A stretch of 64,000 nucleotides of DNA from a virus, in the IMG/VR virus record IMGVR_UViG_3300021964_000017. One strand, given 5' to 3'. Made by a program: the position numbers and the translations under genes. The notes beneath the pieces were generated by a model, which did not search any database, was not told the origin of the DNA, and worked only from the letters and a program-made list of their open reading frames with translations. Below are positions 37,538 to 61,020 of the stretch, in pieces; position 1 is the first letter of the stretch, and every line of letters begins with the position of its first letter.

Positions 37538-38026
37538 ATGAAATGGTTTGATGTAGATATGAATTTACGCGATGAAGATGTAGAATGGATAAATAATATT
37601 GGTGATAATATTAATAAACCTAAATGGTCTATAAGATCGTACAAACTAAATAAGGAAGAACTCAAAAGAATATCTTATATTACTGAGCAGATTAAAGTAA
37701 AACCTTCCTATGTTGTTATAATGATGGTTCCCGCAAATAGTATATGTGAAACTCATGTAGATCACAAGGCTGGTATGGGTATGAGACAACGTATAACAGC
37801 GATTAACATACCAGTTCAAGTACATCAGACTAGTGCTTTTCAATATATGAAGGGGATTGAAAGCCCACAGATTTTAGAGGAAGTATATCTTGACAGAGCA
37901 AAGTGTTGGAGAGTTGATAAACCCCATCGAGTAGATAATTCTCAAAGTCCTTTTAACAGAGTTGTTCTCAGCTTATCATATACGGAAAGCATAGATCAAA
38001 TATATAATTCCTTATCAAGCCGCTGA
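37538..38026 (+). CDS. Cupin Fe(II)/2OG oxygenase-like protein
   Basis: THVD...AINIP...PHRVDN...RVVLS (HxD, H, RxS). Confidence 0.7.
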   Translation: MKWFDVDMNLRDEDVEWINNIGDNINKPKWSIRSYKLNKEELKRISYITEQIKVKPSYVVIMMVPANSICETHVDHKAGMGMRQRITAINIPVQVHQTSAFQYMKGIESPQILEEVYLDRAKCWRVDKPHRVDNSQSPFNRVVLSLSYTESIDQIYNSLSSR

Positions 38027-38065
38027 GCTAAATACAGTGTGGACTCAGGATAGAGAACAGGTTGC

Positions 38066-38509
38066 ATGAAATATTTTATAACAGGAACAAGGCGGGGCTT
38101 AGGTGAAGCCTTAGCCAATAAGTATGGTAATTGTGGTTCCCTTGAAGATTGTGATGTTTTTATTAATAACAAGTGTGATAGGTTTGAACAGGTGTTTATG
38201 CTATATCGTGCAGCTGAGCTAAATAAAAGGATTATAAATATAAGTAGCAATACGTCAGATAAGAAGAAGCCTAATAATAGAATGTACGCAGTCTATAAAG
38301 GCGCATTAGACGACTTAAATGATAGATTGTATTATGAAGGGTATCCTACAACATCAATAAGGTTTGGATATTTTGATAGTCCAAGAGTTGAACATATCGA
38401 TGCGGATAAAATGCCAATCGATTATTGTGTAGACGTAATTGATTGGATATTGAAACAACCTTACGTAATAAAAGAAATAACTATCACTCCAGAGGTTAAA
38501 CATGGCTAA
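38066..38509 (+). CDS. Minimal short-chain dehydrogenase/reductase
   Basis: ITGTRRGLG, FINN, IINISS, YAVYK. Confidence 0.8.
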   Translation: MKYFITGTRRGLGEALANKYGNCGSLEDCDVFINNKCDRFEQVFMLYRAAELNKRIINISSNTSDKKKPNNRMYAVYKGALDDLNDRLYYEGYPTTSIRFGYFDSPRVEHIDADKMPIDYCVDVIDWILKQPYVIKEITITPEVKHG

Positions 38510-38813
38510 AACACAATCGTATACAATTATATTTAACACGCCCCAGGATGATGCACTCAGTGCAATGAATTTGGTAGGAGCTGATGTAGCTAACGACATT
38601 AGAGCTCTTATACATGAGGGATTAGTGGTTGGCAGCGTTGTTGATCAGGTTCAGAATTTATCATCGGATGGGTTAACTCTAAACGTGGAAAGAACCTTTA
38701 CAGATGAGGTTTATAACAATTTAATGGAAATCGTATCAGTAAGCGATATCAAAACTCAAATTGAAAATGTGACAGAAGTGAGTTCAGTGACATATGGATT
38801 TTCAGACTCTTGA
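38502..38813 (+). CDS. Acidic non-enzymatic protein
   Basis: GAGGT RBS; no catalytic motif; Val/Ser/Thr/Asp-rich. Confidence 0.55.
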   Translation: MAKTQSYTIIFNTPQDDALSAMNLVGADVANDIRALIHEGLVVGSVVDQVQNLSSDGLTLNVERTFTDEVYNNLMEIVSVSDIKTQIENVTEVSSVTYGFSDS

Positions 38814-39189
38814 TCAAATAGATGTAGAAGCAATATTGGATGAAGTTTCACATCTAATAGATCCTACTGATAATATATTGTTGCAAAAGGGTACAAGCAC
38901 TCTACACAATTTGCCGTATACAAATTCACTATTTGAAAAATATAATATGACTACATCTCGTATCATGAAGCTAACACCAAGAGAATGTTATTCATGGCAC
39001 ACTGATGTATCTCCAAGAATACACTTTCCTTTAATAACAAACGATAGCTGTCTTTTTATTTTAGAAGACACTGTTTATACAATGCCGTCAGGTAATGCGT
39101 ACTATGTTGATACTCGAAAAAAACACACTGCAATAAATGGTAACAGAAGAAATTTTATCAGGTATCACATTGTGGGCATGGTAAGTTGA
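38794..39189 (+). CDS. Asp/Asn beta-hydroxylase-like cupin oxygenase
   Basis: YSWHTD..RIHFPLITN..HTAIN..RYHIV. Confidence 0.75.
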   Translation: MDFQTLDQIDVEAILDEVSHLIDPTDNILLQKGTSTLHNLPYTNSLFEKYNMTTSRIMKLTPRECYSWHTDVSPRIHFPLITNDSCLFILEDTVYTMPSGNAYYVDTRKKHTAINGNRRNFIRYHIVGMVS

Positions 39190-39258
39190 GAAGTTTATAT
39201 CGCTATATCTTGTATAGAATACAACTATACAAAATGAAGAAAGAGGATCACTTTATTT

Positions 39259-39921
39259 ATGAAACCGATAGTCATCGTAGGGACGAGCCATAGTTCAGTA
39301 AGGTATTCACCAAGCCTAACAAACATTCTTTCTGAATTATCAACTGTTAAAAATCTGGCGGCATATGGCCATGGAATTGACACCTACTTTCCTAGAGTAG
39401 TAAAGATAAGAGAGCCATCGATATTTGTAATTGAAGCTCCTCATCATACTAGATATACAGAATTCATGAATGAGTCAACGTACGAACCATTTAGTTATAC
39501 AGATGATGAATTTTGGACTGAAAAGAGATATATGGATCATCTGGCGTTTTTCTCAAAGTCAGTTTTGTTACCAGATGAAGAATATAGGGAAGCAATACGT
39601 CCCAGTAAAAATGATCTAATTGCATTGCAAAGAATTAAAGTATTAGCAAACCAACAACTGGAATTAGAAGACAATATATTAAAATGTGTGGCCATTGATG
39701 TGTACTTGAAATACAACAACCATCAAGTTTATTGGTGGACAGCAAACAACAAGTTGTTGCATAAATGGAATCATGATTTTCATTTGCTTACAGATAAACC
39801 TGTGTTTGATAACTATCCAGATAAATCTATGTACCCTGACGGATACCATCTAGCAGATAAATATTTTAAACATATAATTAGAGAGAGTTTTGTAAATGAA
39901 TTGGTTCGAAGTAGATGTTAA
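39259..39921 (+). CDS. SGNH/GDSL hydrolase or acyltransferase-like protein
   Basis: IVGTSHS (block I), NLAAYGHG (block II), PDGYH (block V). Confidence 0.6.
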   Translation: MKPIVIVGTSHSSVRYSPSLTNILSELSTVKNLAAYGHGIDTYFPRVVKIREPSIFVIEAPHHTRYTEFMNESTYEPFSYTDDEFWTEKRYMDHLAFFSKSVLLPDEEYREAIRPSKNDLIALQRIKVLANQQLELEDNILKCVAIDVYLKYNNHQVYWWTANNKLLHKWNHDFHLLTDKPVFDNYPDKSMYPDGYHLADKYFKHIIRESFVNELVRSRC

Positions 39922-40399
39922 TTTAAACGAAGAAGATTTTCATTGGGCTTTGGATATTGGAGACAACATCACGGAACCCAATTGGACTATACGTCCATAC
40001 AAACTAAATGATCAAGAGATGGATCGTATTTCTTATCTTACAGATCAAATTGGTACAGCTCCTAGCTATGCAGCAATAATAATGGTTCCAGCGAATAGTG
40101 TTTGTAAAACTCATGTTGATGACAAGGCTGATACTGCTGGAGTCAAACAAAGAATAACTGCTATCAACATTCCTATTCAAGTACACCAATCTTCTATGTT
40201 TCAATACATGATTAATGATCCATTTGCAGGAGAGATGGCTATAGAAATGGTTAAACTTAACACACCTAAATGTTGGAGGGTTGATATACCCCACAGAGTA
40301 GACAATAGTAAAAGTCCGTTTAACAGAGTTGTTCTAAGCCTATCTTATACTCAAACAATAGAGGAACTACATGAAGTATATCGTGCCATTAAAAATTGA
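39896..40399 (+). CDS. Cupin Fe(II)/2OG oxygenase-like protein, paralog of 37538-38026
   Basis: Near-identical blocks MVPANS.C.THVD, QRITAINIP.QVHQ, PHRVDNS.SPFNRVVLSLSYT. Confidence 0.75.
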   Translation: MNWFEVDVNLNEEDFHWALDIGDNITEPNWTIRPYKLNDQEMDRISYLTDQIGTAPSYAAIIMVPANSVCKTHVDDKADTAGVKQRITAINIPIQVHQSSMFQYMINDPFAGEMAIEMVKLNTPKCWRVDIPHRVDNSKSPFNRVVLSLSYTQTIEELHEVYRAIKN

Positions 40400-40937
40400 A
40401 TATGATAAGAATCAATTTCTAGAATTCATTAATCGAAAAAATTTAGATTATGATGCATTGGCCCAAAAGAAACGATGGCACAATAACTTTCCTGTTGAAG
40501 AATTAAACATCGGACCTATCCAGCAATACATGAAGGATGTTGTTCTAATTCTTAGTTTGTTTCCAAAGTATCAAATACCAATTCATGCAGATGGTGCAGG
40601 GACCAGATTAGACAATACCTACAATGTCAGTATTAATTTTCCTGTTGCTAATTGCACTGAAGAGACAGTCACTCACTTCTGGGATTTTGAAGACAGACGT
40701 GAGATAAAATATATTCATCATGAGAAGTTGGGGACACGAGAAATAGTTGATAAGGACCAACTAGTAGTTGCACAAGATTATGTGTTTAGAGATACGCCTG
40801 TGCTATTCAGAAATGAATATCCTCATAGTGTATCTAATAAATGTAATAATTTGAGATTAATGTTAAGCTGGAGATTTAAACCAGAATATTCGTGGGAACA
40901 GGCAATTGAACTATGTGAGCAACATCACCTGTCATAA
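40371..40937 (+). CDS. Cupin Fe(II)/2OG oxygenase-like protein
   Basis: PIHAD..SINFP..PHSV.N..RLMLS. Confidence 0.7.
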   Translation: MKYIVPLKIEYDKNQFLEFINRKNLDYDALAQKKRWHNNFPVEELNIGPIQQYMKDVVLILSLFPKYQIPIHADGAGTRLDNTYNVSINFPVANCTEETVTHFWDFEDRREIKYIHHEKLGTREIVDKDQLVVAQDYVFRDTPVLFRNEYPHSVSNKCNNLRLMLSWRFKPEYSWEQAIELCEQHHLS

Positions 40938-41325
40938 TATAGTGTTGATTGATAGTCCATTTATCTCGCTCAATTATAGTTTGTTGATAAACCTGATCAA
41001 ATAGATCCTTACCTGTAATTCTTTCTAGCGATTGCTTTACAAGGTCAATTCTTCTATATGATGTTGCAATTGTATAGTTCTCCATCACGTACTGATAGAT
41101 CTTGTTATCTAGTTTATGTAAGGAATGCCAATGGCCATGTAATACATGCTTGTGACCATATACTATTTCTTCTACATTATATTCATTTTTTCCAAGATAT
41201 TCAGGTGTGTGCAACACACCATGCGCAGGAAGTTTATTATGCTTTTCTGCAAGATAGTTTACTAATGCTTTGGATGCAGTTCGTGGAAAACTAATTACTG
41301 CTATATTAGAAATTGTGTTCTCCAT
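40876..41325 (-). CDS. Sulfotransferase-like P-loop protein (short)
   Basis: ISFPRTAS resembles the PRTGS 5'-PSB loop; R...Q.S downstream. Confidence 0.45.
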   Translation of the reverse strand: MENTISNIAVISFPRTASKALVNYLAEKHNKLPAHGVLHTPEYLGKNEYNVEEIVYGHKHVLHGHWHSLHKLDNKIYQYVMENYTIATSYRRIDLVKQSLERITGKDLFDQVYQQTIIERDKWTINQHYIMTGDVAHIVQLPVPTNILV

Positions 41326-41993
41326 AACAACCTTTCGCCTTCAAACGCTATACGCTTATGATTCATCCTTAGATTATCCCATACAAGTATTTCGTTATCT
41401 TTCCATTTATGTTTGTATGCGTTTTCTTCACAGTATTCTCTAATTGGTGTAACATCCCAATCAAAGTTTTGTAGTGTTCCTATGCTACAATATAATATCT
41501 CTTCGCCTGTAATATGGTGATTTATAATGAACGGACGAGTGGCCTTTTGTTTTTCTAAAATACGCAGCTGCTTTTCCGTAAAGCATTGTCCATGTAGGTT
41601 TTGTGGAGGATAATATTCTCCTACTGCATCCTTATAGATATGTTTTAAGATATCTGGTGCTTTACTCATATCACAAAACCAAGTAGGCGACAAGTGTGCA
41701 TTACTTACATTGTATAGTATTGTGCCAAAATAGTTACCTCTACCATAACTCCAATCATGATGCCACTGTACATCATCATTACCAAATAATCCACTATTGC
41801 TTAATTCCTGTACAGTTCTATTTTCATTAAGGACATGCTTTGTTGTTACTAACGGTTTACCTAATGCATTAGCAATCTTTTCGAATTGTTCTATAGTAAT
41901 CTTACCTGGCATTTGTATCTTAAGCAATCCATAATTTAGGAGATCGTCACGCAATGTGTGTAACCACTTATCCTGCCATTCTATTTCAAGCAT
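41301..41993 (-). CDS. TauD/TfdA-family Fe(II)/2OG dioxygenase
   Basis: WHHD, T.F.D, H.W...LVWDN...HKR..RLLWR. Confidence 0.85.
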   Translation of the reverse strand: MLEIEWQDKWLHTLRDDLLNYGLLKIQMPGKITIEQFEKIANALGKPLVTTKHVLNENRTVQELSNSGLFGNDDVQWHHDWSYGRGNYFGTILYNVSNAHLSPTWFCDMSKAPDILKHIYKDAVGEYYPPQNLHGQCFTEKQLRILEKQKATRPFIINHHITGEEILYCSIGTLQNFDWDVTPIREYCEENAYKHKWKDNEILVWDNLRMNHKRIAFEGERLLWRTQFLI

Positions 41994-42582
41994 TGTATTC
42001 TCCTAAATGTTTTTCCATTTGTTCAAAGGTTAAATCTGGAAGTTCAATATGTAACATTAGCCTGTCTTTGTTAATATTTTTAACACCATGTCTTTTCATT
42101 ACATTCATTATAACTGGCTGTGTTATATTGTAGCTTCCACCATCCGGATAATATGTTAATGCTTCAGTAGTCTCAAACTCATTATAAAAAAGAGGAAGCA
42201 TTAACAAACAATTTTTTCTATAAGGATAATCGCCATGTACAGGAACATCTTCTCCTGCACGCTGCATAAAAAATGTAATTAATCCTGGCTTTAGTCCCAA
42301 ACCACTTAATTGTGCAATTATGGGTATTATACTTTCATGCATAACATCTGGATATGCTATAATGTCTGTCCTTGCCTGACTTTGTACGCCTTTACTTTGT
42401 AAATGCTTTTTTAGATCTCTTATGCTATCACCTTCAAAGTACCCATAATCACGTTTAAATTCATCTACGTATGTTGCTGGTGTATCCTCCAGCATTTCTA
42501 ATGATAATTTTTTAAAATATCTGTAAAGGGCAGCTGTGCAATATGTTATATCAATCAGTAATATTTCACTGGTGTGTGGCAA
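41986..42582 (-). CDS. Cupin Fe(II)/2OG oxygenase-like protein
   Basis: PVHGD...HGVKN...RLML. Confidence 0.6.
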   Translation of the reverse strand: MPHTSEILLIDITYCTAALYRYFKKLSLEMLEDTPATYVDEFKRDYGYFEGDSIRDLKKHLQSKGVQSQARTDIIAYPDVMHESIIPIIAQLSGLGLKPGLITFFMQRAGEDVPVHGDYPYRKNCLLMLPLFYNEFETTEALTYYPDGGSYNITQPVIMNVMKRHGVKNINKDRLMLHIELPDLTFEQMEKHLGEYNA

Positions 42583-42584
42583 GG

Positions 42585-43457
42585 TTAAGAGGCTTCTGAC
42601 ATGAGACTTTCACAAGTCCATGTTTCAGAAGTTTCTCTCTTAGGGGTAAGCCAGATTCCAGCTCTCCATAATTCACGGTCTCCATCATATGCGTCCCTCT
42701 TGTGCAAGCTGTGGTGTTGATCACTCAGTACAATGTCGTACTGATCCCACTTATGAGTGTAGACATACTTGTCGCTAAGCGTATGTTCTTTTAGTTTATA
42801 ATACAAGTCATGTTGCTGATCATGAGTAAGTCCAGTGAATCCTCTAATAACACTCCAAGGGAAATACAACCCTTCCTTGTTGTTTATAGGATGAATTGTT
42901 ACCAGATCTTTTCTGGGCGCTTGCTTTTCAAATGATGTCTGACCATCAATGTCTCTAAATTCCATCATAGTCTGTTCGTCACTGAAAACATTTTTATAAT
43001 GCATCTTCTCTAACTTCATTTTTGCATTATACGTAACAGTCTTTGACTTTACCTTTCGGCAAACATCTTTTGTATCATCATCTAAGTCTTCCCATGCAGA
43101 TTGGTGATCAGTAAAATAAGTGTCACCACCACTATCTGCTTTTTGATGCATATACATTGCAACAATGTCATCGTGGCCAGTTCTATTCATACCTGCACTA
43201 TGCCATTCTAACTCACCATCATCCTTGCCTGCAAACAAACCATTCTGTCTTACCTTGACAAGTTCTCCAGTAGCAATGGTGCCTGTTACCTTTTTGTTTT
43301 GTTTTACAACATCACCTATCTTCTTGTAGAACTCTATCAGAGTTTGAGGAGCAAGAGGCACTTTATTTTTTATGATAACAGTTCTATACTCTCCAATCAA
43401 TTCTCTAATTCTTGGAGCATCCGTATCATAATTTATGTCATTTACAATATAAGTCAT
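42585..43457 (-). CDS. TauD-fold Fe(II)/2OG enzyme with HxA motif (putative halogenase)
   Basis: EWHSAG in place of WHxD; GGDTYF.D, HP, H.W...D....HKR, RELWR retained. Confidence 0.75.
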   Translation of the reverse strand: MTYIVNDINYDTDAPRIRELIGEYRTVIIKNKVPLAPQTLIEFYKKIGDVVKQNKKVTGTIATGELVKVRQNGLFAGKDDGELEWHSAGMNRTGHDDIVAMYMHQKADSGGDTYFTDHQSAWEDLDDDTKDVCRKVKSKTVTYNAKMKLEKMHYKNVFSDEQTMMEFRDIDGQTSFEKQAPRKDLVTIHPINNKEGLYFPWSVIRGFTGLTHDQQHDLYYKLKEHTLSDKYVYTHKWDQYDIVLSDQHHSLHKRDAYDGDRELWRAGIWLTPKRETSETWTCESLMSEAS

Positions 43458-43954
43458 TTTTTCTCCATCAATAGTTCAGCAGTATTATTTATAGGTGTCC
43501 AAGCTATATGCTGATAATCATTCTCTGTCATTCTATACAATTGATCGGGAGTATGCCATAGCTGAGGTAAGTATTTTTTATAATGATTAAACGCTTGAGT
43601 CTTTGCTTCTCTACTCATGAACGCACAATCAAAACCAAGTTGTTTAGCAACGATTAGTTGTTGATCGATCATCTGCAATGTTTCTTGTGACACTCTTGCT
43701 TTTTTATTTTCAAATCTATAGTTAGGAACTTTATAAAACCTATTTAAAATTCGACAATTGTTCTGCCAATATGGTCTCCATATTACTGAAGAAAATCCTC
43801 CGGCAAAAACTGATACTGCTTCCCACTCTTGTGTTTTTAATTGTTGATATGAATAATTAAGGCGTAGCTTGTCGTTTGGAAGATTACTTACCATTTCCTT
43901 TATTTGTTCTATACAATCGATAAAGTCTGGATGATCTCTAATAACCGTTTTCAT
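43454..43954 (-). CDS. GNAT-like fold protein
   Basis: RILNRFY..P.YR...QQL..AKQLGFDCAFMSRE resembles GNAT motifs A and B. Confidence 0.45.
   Translation of the reverse strand: MKTVIRDHPDFIDCIEQIKEMVSNLPNDKLRLNYSYQQLKTQEWEAVSVFAGGFSSVIWRPYWQNNCRILNRFYKVPNYRFENKKARVSQETLQMIDQQLIVAKQLGFDCAFMSREAKTQAFNHYKKYLPQLWHTPDQLYRMTENDYQHIAWTPINNTAELLMEKK
43486..43493 (-). promoter_or_regulatory. Internal T4 late promoter TATAAATA just upstream of the HxA TauD gene
   Basis: Exact consensus about 30 nt before ATG 43457. Confidence 0.6.
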
Positions 43955-44870
43955 TTTTCTTCACGTGTTCAAAAAAAGGAGCAATCTTAAAGTTTTCTGT
44001 TAACCTACCTCTGTTAGGATTATCATGATCAATCACCCCATCGTCATTTGTCTGCCAATCAATAAGGCGAATAAGAACTGTACCAGCTCTAGTTTTATAT
44101 GGAAACATCATAGACGTAAGAGCCTCCATTGTAGGTCCTGCCTTTACTACTCCAGCAGATGTTTGTATCATTTGATCTTTTGTAACGCCCAGTCTATACT
44201 CAGCCATATCAATTAACTCTTCCATGGTATGAGAACAATCTTCCATATACCGCCCGATGGCACCAACGCTTTTCATTCTTAATACTGGAGTAATTTTATT
44301 GTAAGGTTTAGTTGTATCGAAGTTTATACCATGAGCAATTGCTCTTTCTGCAAACAGCTCTATCTGTCTTAACATGGTAAACTCATTAACTCCTTTTGCA
44401 ATAATTGTTCCGGTATTAACAGGAAGTCTTTGTTCAAATATATTGTCCAGAGCTCTTACTTTTACTGTTGCCCATTTGCCATTATCAAGCTCCTTGTATA
44501 CCAAATCATCATCTGCTCCATTCATACTATGAAGCAACAACCTTAGACCAGAATCTTTCAATTGTTTGACGTAAGATTTGTTTGCTAGCTTTAAACCATT
44601 AGTTGTTAGACTAGGTCTATGGCCAAGAGACTTTACCATATAAATTATCTCACATATATCTTCTCTCATTGTGGGCTCAGCACCAATTAATCTAATGTAA
44701 GTTCTAAATGGAAGTTTTTTAAGAAAGTCGTATAGATTGCTTGTTGGTAGATCGGGAACATCTCTATTGGGAATGTAGCAGTTAGCACATTCCATGTTAC
44801 ATCTGTGAGTTAAATCAACTACAATGTTTGAGAACGTATTGTTCTCTGGATCGAGTTCATAATAATTCAT
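43938..44870 (-). CDS. Radical SAM enzyme
   Basis: CNMECANC, GAEPT, TTNG; start at ATG 44870 after GAGGG; late promoter AATAAATA at 44916-44923. Confidence 0.9.
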   Translation of the reverse strand: MNYYELDPENNTFSNIVVDLTHRCNMECANCYIPNRDVPDLPTSNLYDFLKKLPFRTYIRLIGAEPTMREDICEIIYMVKSLGHRPSLTTNGLKLANKSYVKQLKDSGLRLLLHSMNGADDDLVYKELDNGKWATVKVRALDNIFEQRLPVNTGTIIAKGVNEFTMLRQIELFAERAIAHGINFDTTKPYNKITPVLRMKSVGAIGRYMEDCSHTMEELIDMAEYRLGVTKDQMIQTSAGVVKAGPTMEALTSMMFPYKTRAGTVLIRLIDWQTNDDGVIDHDNPNRGRLTENFKIAPFFEHVKKNENGY

Positions 44871-44943
44871 ATTGTTACCCTCGTTATGGACGTTTTGCCC
44901 TCGTCCGCACACTACTATTTATTGCATAATATTTTTACATTAT

Positions 44944-50109: not shown

Positions 50110-50138
50110 AAAAAAGTCGGGCTAACCATGGCCCGACA
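50110..50138 (-). terminator. Rho-independent terminator
   Basis: GTCGGGC-8 nt-GCCCGAC-TTTTTT. Confidence 0.7.
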
Positions 50139-50574: not shown

Positions 50575-50870
50575 AAGTGCCACATTTTCTGTTGCTAAGC
50601 AAGTGGCCAGCTCCCTGTGTTTAGGCTGCTAGAGCCAAACCAGATGGTGCAAAGTTATTGTTTGCAGTTAGTTTGTTTGATCTATACGCGATCATCCGGT
50701 AAACTCCACTTCATCTTCACACCTGTCGATCCTATTTCAGCCCCATCAAAAGTACACTTTATATTGAGAGGTTCTTACGGCTTCAGCGCTGCCTCGTAGT
50801 GTACTTATGGTGGAGCTGCTGGGTACCGCCCCCAGGTCCAGTATGTGTCCACGTTGCTTCAACGTTTACT
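50575..50870 (-). ncRNA. ssrA: Circularly permuted two-piece tmRNA
   Basis: Acceptor piece ends GGACCTGGGGGCGGTACCCAGCAGCTCCACCA (50808); intervening hairpin; coding piece starts GGGGCTGAAATAGGATCGAC (50744); tag ANNNFAPSGLALAA* at 50665-50621. Outer ends approximate. Confidence 0.92.
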
Positions 50871-51293
50871 AGCTTACTTATACATCCTCTTTAATTTAAA
50901 GGCAACAAGGTTTAAACATTTGTACAGAGTAGGACCTAAAAGGCACAGTGCATAATACATTCCAAGTATTATCAAATACTCTGTAAACACATTCCCTTGT
51001 GTACGTAACACTCCACTGAATATACTACTATGGATTGCGGTGTATAGTAATACAAGAAAATATGAAAAGAATGGCCCCAAAGCCAGCATTAGCAATTTCA
51101 TTAAAAGGGTGGCTCCTCACCCTCATACGAAGGCATCCATCCCATGGATATACCAGTGCGTACAGCGCGCTCATGGGGAGTTTCTTCTTCAGGCCACACA
51201 ATATCTGACTGTGAACCATAAATTGCTATTCTGTCATCTGATGATAGAACGCCATGCTTAAGCATCCAGCACTCAAGGTCAATAGGTATCTCT

Positions 51294-58575: not shown

Positions 58576-58930
58576 TTTAGATACTTGTTTACCATCTCTA
58601 GTAGATCATCATATTTAGCTACTTCATCGAGTTCTTTTTCAATCTCCTCAATGATATCACCATTGTTACCAACTCCAACTGGATTGTTAAGCAACACTTC
58701 TACATTTGCTAAGTGTTTATCAACATGACCCTTTGCATGTGATACGAAGCATTCTAATAGGCGTTCTTTCATTGATCTTCCTTCCGTTTATCTACAACTT
58801 CTTCCAACACACCTAGGACTTCTGCTAGGATAATGAATACACCACCCCATAGTAGGCTACCATAGATGAAAGCAGCACCAGCAACAAAGCGCAGGCCACT
58901 CTTAACAAAACTTACATTCATGTGATTCAT
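58572..58930 (-). CDS. Two small genes (58572-58772; 58769-58930, a membrane peptide)
   Basis: H.ANVEV.L.NPVG.G; hand translation SFVKSGLR..AEVLGVLEE. Confidence 0.55.
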
Positions 58931-59640
58931 TATACACGATTCCCCGCGAACTGTTGTTGCATTTTAATATAGTCAAGGAATTCATTCTTGACAGATGGAT
59001 TAAAGAACTGACCACGCAGCTCACACGTTTGAGTCAATGAGCTATGAGCCATGATACCACGGTTCTCACAACATCCATGAGTCCCTTGAATATATACAGC
59101 CAAGTCTTTTGCGCCTGTATGTGCTGCAATCTCATTAGCAATGTCTTGCGTAAGCTCTTCTTGCAGAGTCCCACGACGTGCACAGTGCTGAGCTATACGA
59201 GTGTATTTAGACAAACCAATTACTTTAACACTAGGAATCAGACCAATATATGCTACACCTGATACCGGCTGGTGGTGATGTGAACACATAGACTTAATCT
59301 CAGAACGTACAACAATCATACCACCATAACGAGTATCAATATCGTCGTTGGGGAATGCTGTAACAGATGGCTGAGGGTCATAACGACCAGCCATAGTCTC
59401 GTTTACATACATCTTAGCCAGACGACGAGCTGTACCCATAGAGTTAGGATCTTCATTCTGATCAATAATCAAAGAGCTAAGGACACCACGAAACTTCTCT
59501 TCGAGCTCATCAATAAGCTCCCATTTCTCTTCTTCACTAATAAACTCCGCGATGTTGTCATTAGCCCAATAGCGAGCTCCTGCTTCATCAATGCGGTCCT
59601 TAATTACATCAGAAATGTTCATTTGTTTTCCTTTTACCAT
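58930..59640 (-). CDS. folE: GTP cyclohydrolase I
   Basis: SMCSHHH, IGLSKY.R, LQE.LT, HGCCE.RG. Confidence 0.93.
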   Translation of the reverse strand: MVKGKQMNISDVIKDRIDEAGARYWANDNIAEFISEEEKWELIDELEEKFRGVLSSLIIDQNEDPNSMGTARRLAKMYVNETMAGRYDPQPSVTAFPNDDIDTRYGGMIVVRSEIKSMCSHHHQPVSGVAYIGLIPSVKVIGLSKYTRIAQHCARRGTLQEELTQDIANEIAAHTGAKDLAVYIQGTHGCCENRGIMAHSSLTQTCELRGQFFNPSVKNEFLDYIKMQQQFAGNRV

Positions 59641-59641
59641 A

Positions 59642-60079
59642 TTAATCTTTCTCCCAAGGAAATACTATCCAACGATCGTCGCTCAAAGTCAACGCTGCAG
59701 TTGCTGGATGTGTAGTTTCGAGCTTCTGGACTAGAGAGATAAACATTACATTGGATCGAGCTCCATGATATGCTTTACTAATCTCACTAAATGTACGCCC
59801 AGTATCATTGATATCATCCACAAAGACAACACGAGATCCTGTGTCAATCAATTGTTGAATGTAACTATTATGCTCACACTTATTGACGTCTCGCGTCTGC
59901 CATATAATCGTTTGCAGTGGTCGATCTAGGTGATGCGACAAGTGGAGAGCTGGAAGAAGACCTCCTCTTGTAATACCTACAATAACGTCAGGTTTAAACT
60001 TAGATACATCATGAACAAGATTCATGTTCATTGATTCTACATCATTGTAGTCCAAATAGATTTTATTTTTAAACTTCAT
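59642..60079 (-). CDS. Purine phosphoribosyltransferase (Gpt-like)
   Basis: RGGL.PA, VDDINDTGRT, WIVFPWE. Confidence 0.85.
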   Translation of the reverse strand: MKFKNKIYLDYNDVESMNMNLVHDVSKFKPDVIVGITRGGLLPALHLSHHLDRPLQTIIWQTRDVNKCEHNSYIQQLIDTGSRVVFVDDINDTGRTFSEISKAYHGARSNVMFISLVQKLETTHPATAALTLSDDRWIVFPWEKD

Positions 60080-61020
60080 TATGTACCAATCGCATTACCA
60101 AAGAGATACACATGCATGCGACCAGATACGTTATAGCCACGCTCAAATGCCATCTTAGCTACATCACCTGCTGTCTCTTCTTGCTCTTCGAGTCTGGCAC
60201 CTGTTGGCATGATCCAGATTGGATACTTAACACCAGCATCACGGAACAATGTTACAACTTCATCTAGCTCGTCCCATTGATCTTGCTCAGGTCCTACAAC
60301 AAACTTTAGTTGACCTTTATCAGACACATCGTAGTACGATTTAACAATCTCTGGCTTGATGGCTTTCTCACGTTTCTCGCCAGCTACAGTCCATAGCTTA
60401 GGTGATACAGAGAAGAATGCTTCTGGCTTAAACAGAGGTGACTTAACCAGCTTAACAAAGTCATCTGATAGACGCTGTGTACCATTAGTCTCCCATGTAA
60501 TCGACGAAGGTAGGTTCTCTGCAGCGTTATAAGACGTCTCTGCAATAGGTCCACCAGGCATAATAGTCAATGCATCGTAGATGTCAAGGAAAGCCATCTG
60601 AGATAGTTTCATCAAAGGCTCACCACCAGTAATACACAAATGATTGTGATGACCAGACAAAGGATGACGGAACCAACCTTCTGGGTTGTGTTCATTCTTC
60701 ATAATGTCTACGAGCTTCTGAGCCAACTCAGGTCCTGTAGCTTGACCCATCAAGTGCTTATACTTCTTAGACCAAGTATATGACGAGTCACACCCTTTCT
60801 CCCACACAGGAAGATCTTCAACACGTTCTACTTTAGATGCATCAAACTCTGCATAAGGCAACTCGTATGTCTCAGGCTTAGTCGGAAACTTCTGACCGAA
60901 GCCATCACATTGTAAGTTACACAAGAAGAATCTTATCCAGGCAGTAGGGACACCAGTGTAGTGTCCCTCACCTTGAATCGAATGGAAGATTTCACTATAC
61001 GTGTATTTCCTATCCGTCAT
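60079..61020 (-). CDS. queE: 7-carboxy-7-deazaguanine synthase (radical SAM)
   Basis: EIF.SIQGEG, CNLQC..(long insert)..CDS, TGGEP, ETNG, SVSPK, R.H. Confidence 0.9.
   Translation of the reverse strand: MTDRKYTYSEIFHSIQGEGHYTGVPTAWIRFFLCNLQCDGFGQKFPTKPETYELPYAEFDASKVERVEDLPVWEKGCDSSYTWSKKYKHLMGQATGPELAQKLVDIMKNEHNPEGWFRHPLSGHHNHLCITGGEPLMKLSQMAFLDIYDALTIMPGGPIAETSYNAAENLPSSITWETNGTQRLSDDFVKLVKSPLFKPEAFFSVSPKLWTVAGEKREKAIKPEIVKSYYDVSDKGQLKFVVGPEQDQWDELDEVVTLFRDAGVKYPIWIMPTGARLEEQEETAGDVAKMAFERGYNVSGRMHVYLFGNAIGT

What the first reader, a model, noticed from the sequence alone, without database searches (positions are those of the whole stretch)
42585..43457. TauD-fold enzyme with HxA instead of HxD: candidate viral non-heme iron halogenase
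Seen: the iron motif reads W-H-S-A-G (CAT AGT GCA, 43202-43194), whereas the neighbouring TauD paralog (41301-41993) has W-H-H-D. The distal His (SLHKR) and the 2OG-binding Arg (RELWR) are intact. Known: replacing the facial-triad carboxylate with Ala or Gly is the signature of Fe(II)/2OG halogenases such as SyrB2, WelO5, BesD and AdeV, because it frees a site for chloride. Inference: a halogenase/hydroxylase pair in a marine phage, the former with its own late promoter. Caveat: GCA is one substitution from GAA (Glu).
Basis: partly seen in the sequence, partly recalled or inferred. Interest (0 to 1): 0.86.

Follow-up and report, generated by a model that had tools for sequence, protein, structure and literature searches.

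The report
Candidate phage iron halogenase, TauD fold
A family of marine phage enzymes has stably lost one of its three iron-holding residues in the way that chlorinating enzymes do, so it may be the first viral enzyme of this chlorinating type, but related phage enzymes lose the same residue in another way, so halogenation is about an even bet.

Summary
The 290-aa TauD-fold protein has His86-Ser-Ala88, His252 and intact 2-oxoglutarate residues (Thr113, Arg261, Arg265). Ala is kept in 87 of 88 homologs (40-100% identity), with three different codons, under purifying selection. It marks a supported clade whose few Glu members include a duplicate lying beside an Ala copy. All 17 close loci keep radical SAM, GNAT, TauD(HxA), TauD(HxD).

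An Asn enzyme fills the same slot in two related cassettes. Loss of the carboxylate is therefore less diagnostic here than usual. A clade-invariant His249 could not be placed in 3D.

Best reading: radical halogenase (0.45). Rivals: two-His oxygenase like AspH (0.30), three-His site (0.10), non-catalytic partner (0.10). I found no TauD-class or viral radical halogenase in the literature searched. The scan noted the same motif in other phage genomes (unchecked notes). The substrate is unknown, and the late promoter is only partly conserved.

The parts
42585..43457 (-). TauD/TfdA-fold Fe(II)/2OG enzyme with His-X-Ala site, 290 aa (candidate radical halogenase)
   Evidence: Pfam TauD 8e-30; AF2 pLDDT 86.5; Z 25.6, rmsd 2.4 A over 240 residues to P. 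putida TauD
43194..43202 (-). His86-Ser87-Ala88: first iron ligand, and Ala in place of the carboxylate
   Evidence: Ala 87/88
42663..42725 (-). Ser245, Asp246, Gln247, His249, distal His252, Arg261, Arg265 (second sphere, second ligand, 2OG arginines)
   Evidence: each 84-86 of 86 complete homologs; register with solved TauD-family chains
43486..43493 (-). T4-type late promoter candidate TATAAATA inside the 3' end of the GNAT gene
   Evidence: exact in 4/17 loci
43454..43954 (-). GNAT-fold protein, 166 aa, always directly upstream in the close subclade
   Evidence: AF2 pLDDT 92; all top 50 fold matches are GNAT-fold acyltransferases, Z 8.6-10.4; synteny
43938..44912 (-). Radical SAM enzyme (probable start 44873, 311 aa), first gene of the conserved core
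   Evidence: Pfam 8e-15; nearest NCBIfam TrsS/Tes/MoaA, all far below cut-off; synteny
41301..41993 (-). Canonical HxD TauD-fold paralog, 230 aa
   Evidence: Pfam 1.9e-17; His78, Asp80, His212, Arg221, Arg225 invariant in 19
41986..42582 (-). 198-aa variable insert, probably a small cupin oxygenase (HxD...H by eye)
   Evidence: no Pfam hit; family F7 appears at varying positions in the islands
40876..41325 (-). 149-aa protein with a sulfotransferase-like N-terminal loop (by eye only)
   Evidence: no family hit; follows the core in 8 loci
37538..40937 (+). Convergent accessory operon: small cupin oxygenases, SDR-like protein, 103-aa protein, AspH-like protein
   Evidence: variable subset shared by related loci

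Best explanation
A phage-encoded Fe(II)/2-oxoglutarate radical halogenase built on the TauD scaffold. SHOWN: TauD fold; His86 and His252 in the ligand positions; Ala in the carboxylate position; Thr113, Arg261 and Arg265 in the 2OG-binding positions; clade-wide conservation; a fixed place in a radical SAM, GNAT, TauD(HxA), TauD(HxD) cassette. INFERRED from SyrB2/WelO5/BesD/BtnX chemistry: Fe(II) is held by the two His and 2OG; chloride or bromide takes the site opened by Ala88, with Ser245 (where canonical members have Trp) and Gln247 as possible second-sphere donors; O2 gives a halo-ferryl species that abstracts H from an sp3 carbon and returns the halide. INFERRED, weaker: the substrate carries an amine (invariant Glu82 lies where E. 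coli TauD has the amine-binding Asn95, from memory) and passes through acylation (GNAT), radical SAM and hydroxylation (HxD paralog) steps late in infection, on a small molecule or a virion or surface component. The substrate is not identified.
For: Ala in 87/88 homologs with three codons. Clade of 14 representatives (11 Ala, 2 Glu, 1 Cys) keeps support 99 with the site masked. pN 0.13-0.31 against pS 0.64-0.89. His86, Thr113, His252, Arg261, Arg265 invariant in 92 sequences. The Glu member P0086 (GAA, two independent contigs) is the more diverged copy of a tandem pair beside an Ala copy, and its ortholog in L045 (64%) has Ala, which mirrors the BtnX Gly-to-Asp/Glu switch to a hydroxylase (PMC13489965). 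All previously reported radical halogenases have 2His-1Gly/Ala, and both candidates tested from motif mining were halogenases. Marine phage oxygenase islands already encode flavin halogenases (PMC2938197; VirX1), and one distant HxA locus has a tryptophan-halogenase homolog.
Against: Of 136 full-length representatives, the position holds Asn 69, Asp 42, Ala 14, Glu 4, His 3, Gly 3, Cys 1, so this radiation drops the carboxylate routinely. L062/L064 have an HxN enzyme (29-31% identity) directly before the same HxD partner, with the same radical SAM family nearby. AspH hydroxylates with two His and does not halogenate, and FIH D201G is active. TauD D101A is not a halogenase and is rescued by formate. 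His249 is 14/14 in the clade and its position relative to iron was not measured. The flavin halogenase neighbour occurs at one locus type only. No substrate or product is known.
Confidence: 0.45

Rival explanations
1. A catalytically active two-His oxygenase (hydroxylase or desaturase) in which water or a carboxylate of the substrate fills the third site, as in AspH. Ala and Asn would be two ways of doing the same job in this viral radiation.
For: Asn is the commonest residue at the site. Asp/Asn changes at least 16 times on the tree. Gln replaces the canonical Asn of the D-N motif in 84 of 90 non-carboxylate members against about half of carboxylate members, which points to a family-wide remodelling that predates Ala. 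Same cassette slot filled by HxN. AspH, FIH D201G and formate rescue of TauD D101A are precedents.
Against: Inside the clade the site is fixed as Ala rather than drifting among Asn, Asp, Ser or Gly. No clade-specific acid like AspH Asp721 was found near the distal His; Asp246 is canonical for all TauD members. These islands are modular, so the same slot need not mean the same reaction.
Confidence: 0.3
2. A three-His metal site: His249 reaches into the space left by Ala88, giving a different oxygenase chemistry or metal preference.
For: His249 is 86/86 in close homologs and 14/14 in the clade, against 12/69 in HxN and 8/42 in HxD members. It lies three residues before the distal His, on the strand that pairs with the HxA strand.
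Against: The same position is Arg in the HxD partner and in CarC, and Gln or Cys in other solved members, which suggests it faces away from the metal. Glu members of the clade keep His249. Shared ancestry alone could explain the conservation.
Confidence: 0.1
3. A non-catalytic partner (pseudo-enzyme) that binds and shapes the HxD paralog, like TlxI in TlxI-J.
For: HxD partner within two genes in all 17 close loci. TauD D101A is inactive. Heterodimers of this kind exist (PMC11880133).
Against: Both His and all 2OG residues are invariant, whereas TlxI lost the 2OG Arg. The subclade next to DNA polymerase and other HxA members have no HxD partner. The gene is at least as conserved as its partner.
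Confidence: 0.1
4. An ordinary taurine dioxygenase auxiliary metabolic gene, as databases annotate it.
For: JGI names the homologs 'taurine dioxygenase'. Viral tauD is treated as a sulfur AMG in 10.1101/2021.01.05.425418. The best fold match is TauD.
Against: 25 bits against a cut-off of 313 for the NCBIfam taurine dioxygenase model; 13-15% identity to TauD; lacks the Asp whose loss kills TauD; context is a tailoring-enzyme island.
Confidence: 0.03

Closest known systems
TauD/TfdA/clavaminate-synthase-like Fe(II)/2OG dioxygenases (TauD, AtsK, RdpA, AAD-2, PlaO1, ScoE/Rv0097, CarC)
   Same: Fold (Z 13.5-25.6), both His, and the Thr/Arg/Arg 2OG site
   Different: Ala for Asp; W-D-N motif changed to S-D-Q; 13-22% identity; viral; none of the solved members listed is described as a halogenase
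Fe(II)/2OG radical halogenases (SyrB2, CurA, WelO5, BesD/HalB, AdaV, DAH, AspX, BtnX)
   Same: His-X-Ala plus distal His with the 2OG site intact; HxD/E relatives nearby in the family
   Different: Different structural subclass (WelO5 Z 9.4, HalB Z 8.0); no carrier protein in the cassette; phage-encoded; embedded in a radiation dominated by His-X-Asn; activity untested
Aspartate/asparagine beta-hydroxylase AspH
   Same: Only two obvious protein ligands with an intact 2OG site
   Different: Different subclass; no equivalent of the water-holding Asp721 identified; no TPR domain
Cyanophage tandem dioxygenase/halogenase islands (Syn9; Iyer et al. 2010) and VirX1
   Same: Marine T4-like phage island of many oxygenases and tailoring enzymes with unknown product
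   Different: Their halogenases are flavin-dependent and aromatic; this core has radical SAM, GNAT and two TauD-fold enzymes
Pelagibacter phage Mosig EXVC030M gene 75 (QOI69039)
   Same: Only cultured-phage homolog found (26%); in a similar island with GNAT, AspH-like and desaturase genes near tail fibres
   Different: His-X-Asn, no HxD partner, uncharacterised

Membership tests
TauD/TfdA (PF02668) | Profile score above the gathering cut-off and TauD fold | tested here: met
   105 bits vs 27; Z 25.6, rmsd 2.4 A, 240 aligned
TauD/TfdA canonical dioxygenase | 2-His-1-carboxylate triad (HxD/E...H) | tested here: not met
   Ala88 in 87/88
Taurine dioxygenase (equivalog) | NCBIfam PRK09553 cut-off | tested here: not met
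   24.7 bits vs 313
Fe(II)/2OG radical halogenase | DSBH fold with two His ligands | tested here: met
   His86 and His252 invariant and in register with solved TauD-family chains
Fe(II)/2OG radical halogenase | Ala/Gly at the carboxylate position, conserved | tested here: met
Fe(II)/2OG radical halogenase | 2OG-binding Arg and Thr retained | tested here: met
   Thr113, Arg261, Arg265 invariant in 92
Fe(II)/2OG radical halogenase | No other side chain completes the metal site in 3D | tested here: inconclusive
Fe(II)/2OG radical halogenase | Membership of a characterised halogenase sequence family | tested here: inconclusive
   No halogenase among PDB sequence hits; WelO5 Z 9.4 and HalB Z 8.0 only at superfamily level; the 946-candidate atlas supplement could not be read
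Fe(II)/2OG radical halogenase | Halide binds iron and a C-X product forms | not testable with these tools
   needs assay or structure
AspH-type two-His hydroxylase | Second-sphere carboxylate that holds an iron-bound water | tested here: inconclusive
   no clade-specific acid near the distal His; geometry not measured
TlxI-type inactive partner | Loss of the 2OG Arg | tested here: not met
   Arg261 and Arg265 invariant; TlxI description
TlxI-type inactive partner | Heterodimer with the active paralog | not testable with these tools

The most novel reading that the evidence does not exclude
Marine phages carry a large TauD-fold radiation that swaps the third iron ligand among Asp, Asn, Ala, Glu and His, and the Ala clade is a new family of radical halogenases: the first on the TauD/clavaminate-synthase scaffold and the first from viruses, making halogenated sp3 products during infection of abundant marine bacteria.
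Probability: 0.4. Interest if true: 0.88.

Novelty: new variant of a known kind. Interest (0 to 1): 0.7.

Why it matters
If it halogenates, it adds a new scaffold to a small, biocatalytically prized enzyme class and gives marine viruses a route to aliphatic organohalogens; the only characterised viral halogenase found in the papers read is flavin-dependent (VirX1). If it does not, the clade and its His-X-Asn relatives are natural exceptions to the rule 'no carboxylate means halogenase' that current mining relies on, and show an unexplored way of running Fe/2OG chemistry. Either way, many viral genes counted as 'tauD' sulfur-metabolism genes are probably mis-annotated. Natural Ala/Glu duplicates (L017, L045) give a ready test pair.

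Tried and rejected
Sequencing error or private mutation: rejected. Decaying pseudogene: rejected. Host-derived gene with HxA relatives in cells: one pattern scan of GTDB genomes gave only two distant MAG loci, both His-X-Asn; this scan is not exhaustive. Cultured phages: no close homolog of the HxA enzyme, the radical SAM enzyme or the HxD partner. PHROGs has no family for either TauD. Complex prediction of the two paralogs with iron was not available, so there is no verdict on binding. No whole genome was held. No halogenase appeared among the TauD-class rows of the fold searches; this is an absence, not an exclusion. Literature searches for a TauD-class or viral Fe/2OG halogenase, or a His-X-Asn enzyme, found none; the library lacks most subscription papers, and the supplement of PMC13489965, which may list TauD-family or viral candidates, was not readable. 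Flavin halogenase as a general neighbour: rejected, one locus type only. A conserved hairpin before the radical SAM gene belongs to another gene.

Full report
Observation. The minus-strand ORF 43457-42585 encodes 290 aa with a full-length Pfam TauD match (E=8e-30). The motif reads Trp85-His86-Ser87-Ala88-Gly89, with CAT AGT GCA at 43202-43194; His252, Arg261 and Arg265 are present. The paralog at 41993-41301 has His-His-Asp, with one 198-aa gene between the two. The window is a T4-like phage (gp32, T4 RNase H, baseplate tail tube cap, ribonucleotide reductase). It carries an alphaproteobacterial-type two-piece tmRNA, which hints at the host. Several homologs come from Tara Oceans and seawater assemblies.

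Is the Ala real? Yes. The identical protein lies on five contigs. Among 88 homologs at 40-100% identity, 87 have Ala and one Glu. The Ala codon varies (GCA 12, GCT 11, GCC 4), so the residue is what is kept, not the codon. Against the window gene, homologs show pN 0.13-0.31 with saturated pS 0.64-0.89, and the gene is at least as conserved as its HxD partner. His86, Thr113, His252, Arg261 and Arg265 are invariant in 92 sequences; by spacing these match the iron and 2OG residues of TauD (established knowledge; register seen).

Fold. The AlphaFold model (pLDDT 86.5) matches TauD at Z 25.6, rmsd 2.4 A over 240 residues. In the wide search, twenty TauD/clavaminate-synthase-class structures score Z 13.5-24.4, and the halogenases WelO5 and HalB only 9.4 and 8.0. 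It is therefore not an offshoot of a characterised halogenase family as far as these searches show. It is also not a taurine dioxygenase by the NCBIfam model (25 vs 313 bits), although databases name it so and viral tauD has been counted as a sulfur gene.

The wider family changes the picture. A profile search of 1.84 billion representatives showed that, among 136 full-length best hits, the carboxylate position holds Asn 69, Asp 42, Ala 14, Glu 4, His 3, Gly 3 and Cys 1. The nearest Atlas clusters are 89-98% viral. With the site masked, our clade (11 Ala, 2 Glu, 1 Cys) stays one side of a branch with support 99; a second small Ala group exists; Asp and Asn exchange at least 16 times (FastTree, midpoint root only, so the direction of change is not established). 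The canonical W-D-N before the distal His becomes S-D-Q here. Gln is found in 84 of 90 non-carboxylate members and Trp almost only with Asp. So the metal site was remodelled across the radiation, and Ala is one outcome. Two-His sites with Asn are mentioned only as a bioinformatic category in PMC13489965.

Could another residue replace the Asp? Glu82 and an acid at 96 are invariant in close homologs, but Glu82 is absent in several Ala-clade members, and both acids are common in HxN members. From memory, they fall at TauD's amine-binding Asn95 and at a structural salt-bridge position. His249 is the real candidate: 14/14 in the clade, 12/69 in HxN, 8/42 in HxD. The same position is Arg in the partner and in CarC, and the Glu members keep His249, which argues that it points away.

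Context. All 17 distinct loci of the close subclade keep radical SAM, GNAT-fold protein, HxA enzyme and HxD enzyme in that order, sometimes with one inserted gene, followed by a variable set of small cupins and a sulfotransferase-like gene. The GNAT fold was confirmed by model and fold search. The radical SAM enzyme is nearest to TrsS/Tes/MoaA but far below their cut-offs. A sister subclade sits directly after a family B DNA polymerase without an HxD partner, sometimes as a tandem pair. In L017 the pair is Glu plus Ala, confirmed on two contigs, while the orthologous first copy in L045 (64%) has Ala: a natural toggle like the engineered BtnX Gly-to-Asp/Glu hydroxylase, though relaxed selection on a duplicate could also explain it. 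A distant member lies four genes from a tryptophan-halogenase homolog, the only such case. Against this, L062 and L064 place a His-X-Asn enzyme of another lineage (29-31%) directly before the same HxD partner, with the same radical SAM family nearby. The late-promoter 8-mer is enriched in the window and lies 28 nt before the start, but is exact in 4 of 17 loci.

Mechanism. Most likely (0.45): two His and 2OG bind Fe(II), halide takes the Ala88 site, O2 gives a halo-ferryl species, hydrogen abstraction is followed by halide return, as one step of a late tailoring pathway with acylation, radical SAM chemistry and hydroxylation. The site anatomy and the cassette are shown; halide binding, chemistry, substrate and timing are inferred. 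The prior is decent: all reported radical halogenases have 2His-1Gly/Ala, and two of two mined candidates worked, though both came from one CurA-related cluster. It is lowered by AspH, which uses two His and does not halogenate, by active FIH D201G, by TauD D101A, which gains no halogenation and is rescued by formate, and above all by the Asn-rich family background. Hence two-His oxygenase 0.30, three-His site 0.10, inactive partner 0.10 (TlxI lost the 2OG Arg, this protein has not), taurine dioxygenase 0.03.

Novelty. Oxygenase and flavin-halogenase islands in marine phages are known (PMC2938197; VirX1, PMC8407142). I found no report of a viral or TauD-class Fe/2OG halogenase; the 2026 mining paper does not mention phages, viruses or TauD in its main text, but its supplement was not readable. 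First-stage notes of this scan flagged the same motif in other phage genomes; they are unchecked and add no independent support. Verdict: a real, conserved, testable non-canonical enzyme family; new variant of a known kind; interest 0.7.

Noticed in passing
P0089-P0242; L013:2599-3531, L026:5114-6804, L028:7791-8600, L062:6785-7732: A large, mostly viral TauD-fold radiation has His-X-Asn in place of HxD, with both His and the 2OG Arg intact (69 of 136 representatives), including cultured Pelagibacter phage Mosig gene 75; some members have His-X-His. No description found in the papers searched.
   Followed up: partly
window 50576-50920 (-): Alphaproteobacterial-type permuted tmRNA (Rfam RF01849/RF04321), also in L001, L003, L004, L009; suggests an alphaproteobacterial host.
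   Followed up: partly
window 50122-50132 (-); L001:6535, L003:6550, L004:6550, L007:6035, L009:4570: A conserved non-coding two-hairpin element (core GCCAYGGTYAG) with no Rfam match. In the window it follows the 119-aa gene 50540-50181; in several related loci it lies between that gene's homolog and the radical SAM gene.
   Followed up: partly
L017:2235-3987, L045:4375-6150, L046, L047: An HxA subclade sits directly after a family B DNA polymerase and before nucleotide-sugar genes, sometimes duplicated, with one copy HxE; a nucleotide or sugar substrate is worth testing there.
   Followed up: partly
L083:2871-4151: Phage tryptophan-halogenase homolog (E 4e-36 to RebH) with a nitroreductase and an AMP-binding gene in an island that also holds a distant HxA TauD.
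   Followed up: partly
L026 (bacterial MAG), L027 (Pseudobdellovibrionaceae MAG): Cellular islands resemble the phage ones: HxN TauD genes (tandem in L026), AspH-like and GNAT-like genes; L026 also has radical SAM, desaturase and small proteins with Tat-like leaders.
   Followed up: no
window 38502-38813 (+): 103-aa protein without an enzyme motif, kept in several related islands; a possible substrate or scaffold.
   Followed up: no
window 58930-61020 (-): GTP cyclohydrolase I and QueE-like genes suggest 7-deazaguanine DNA modification.
   Followed up: no
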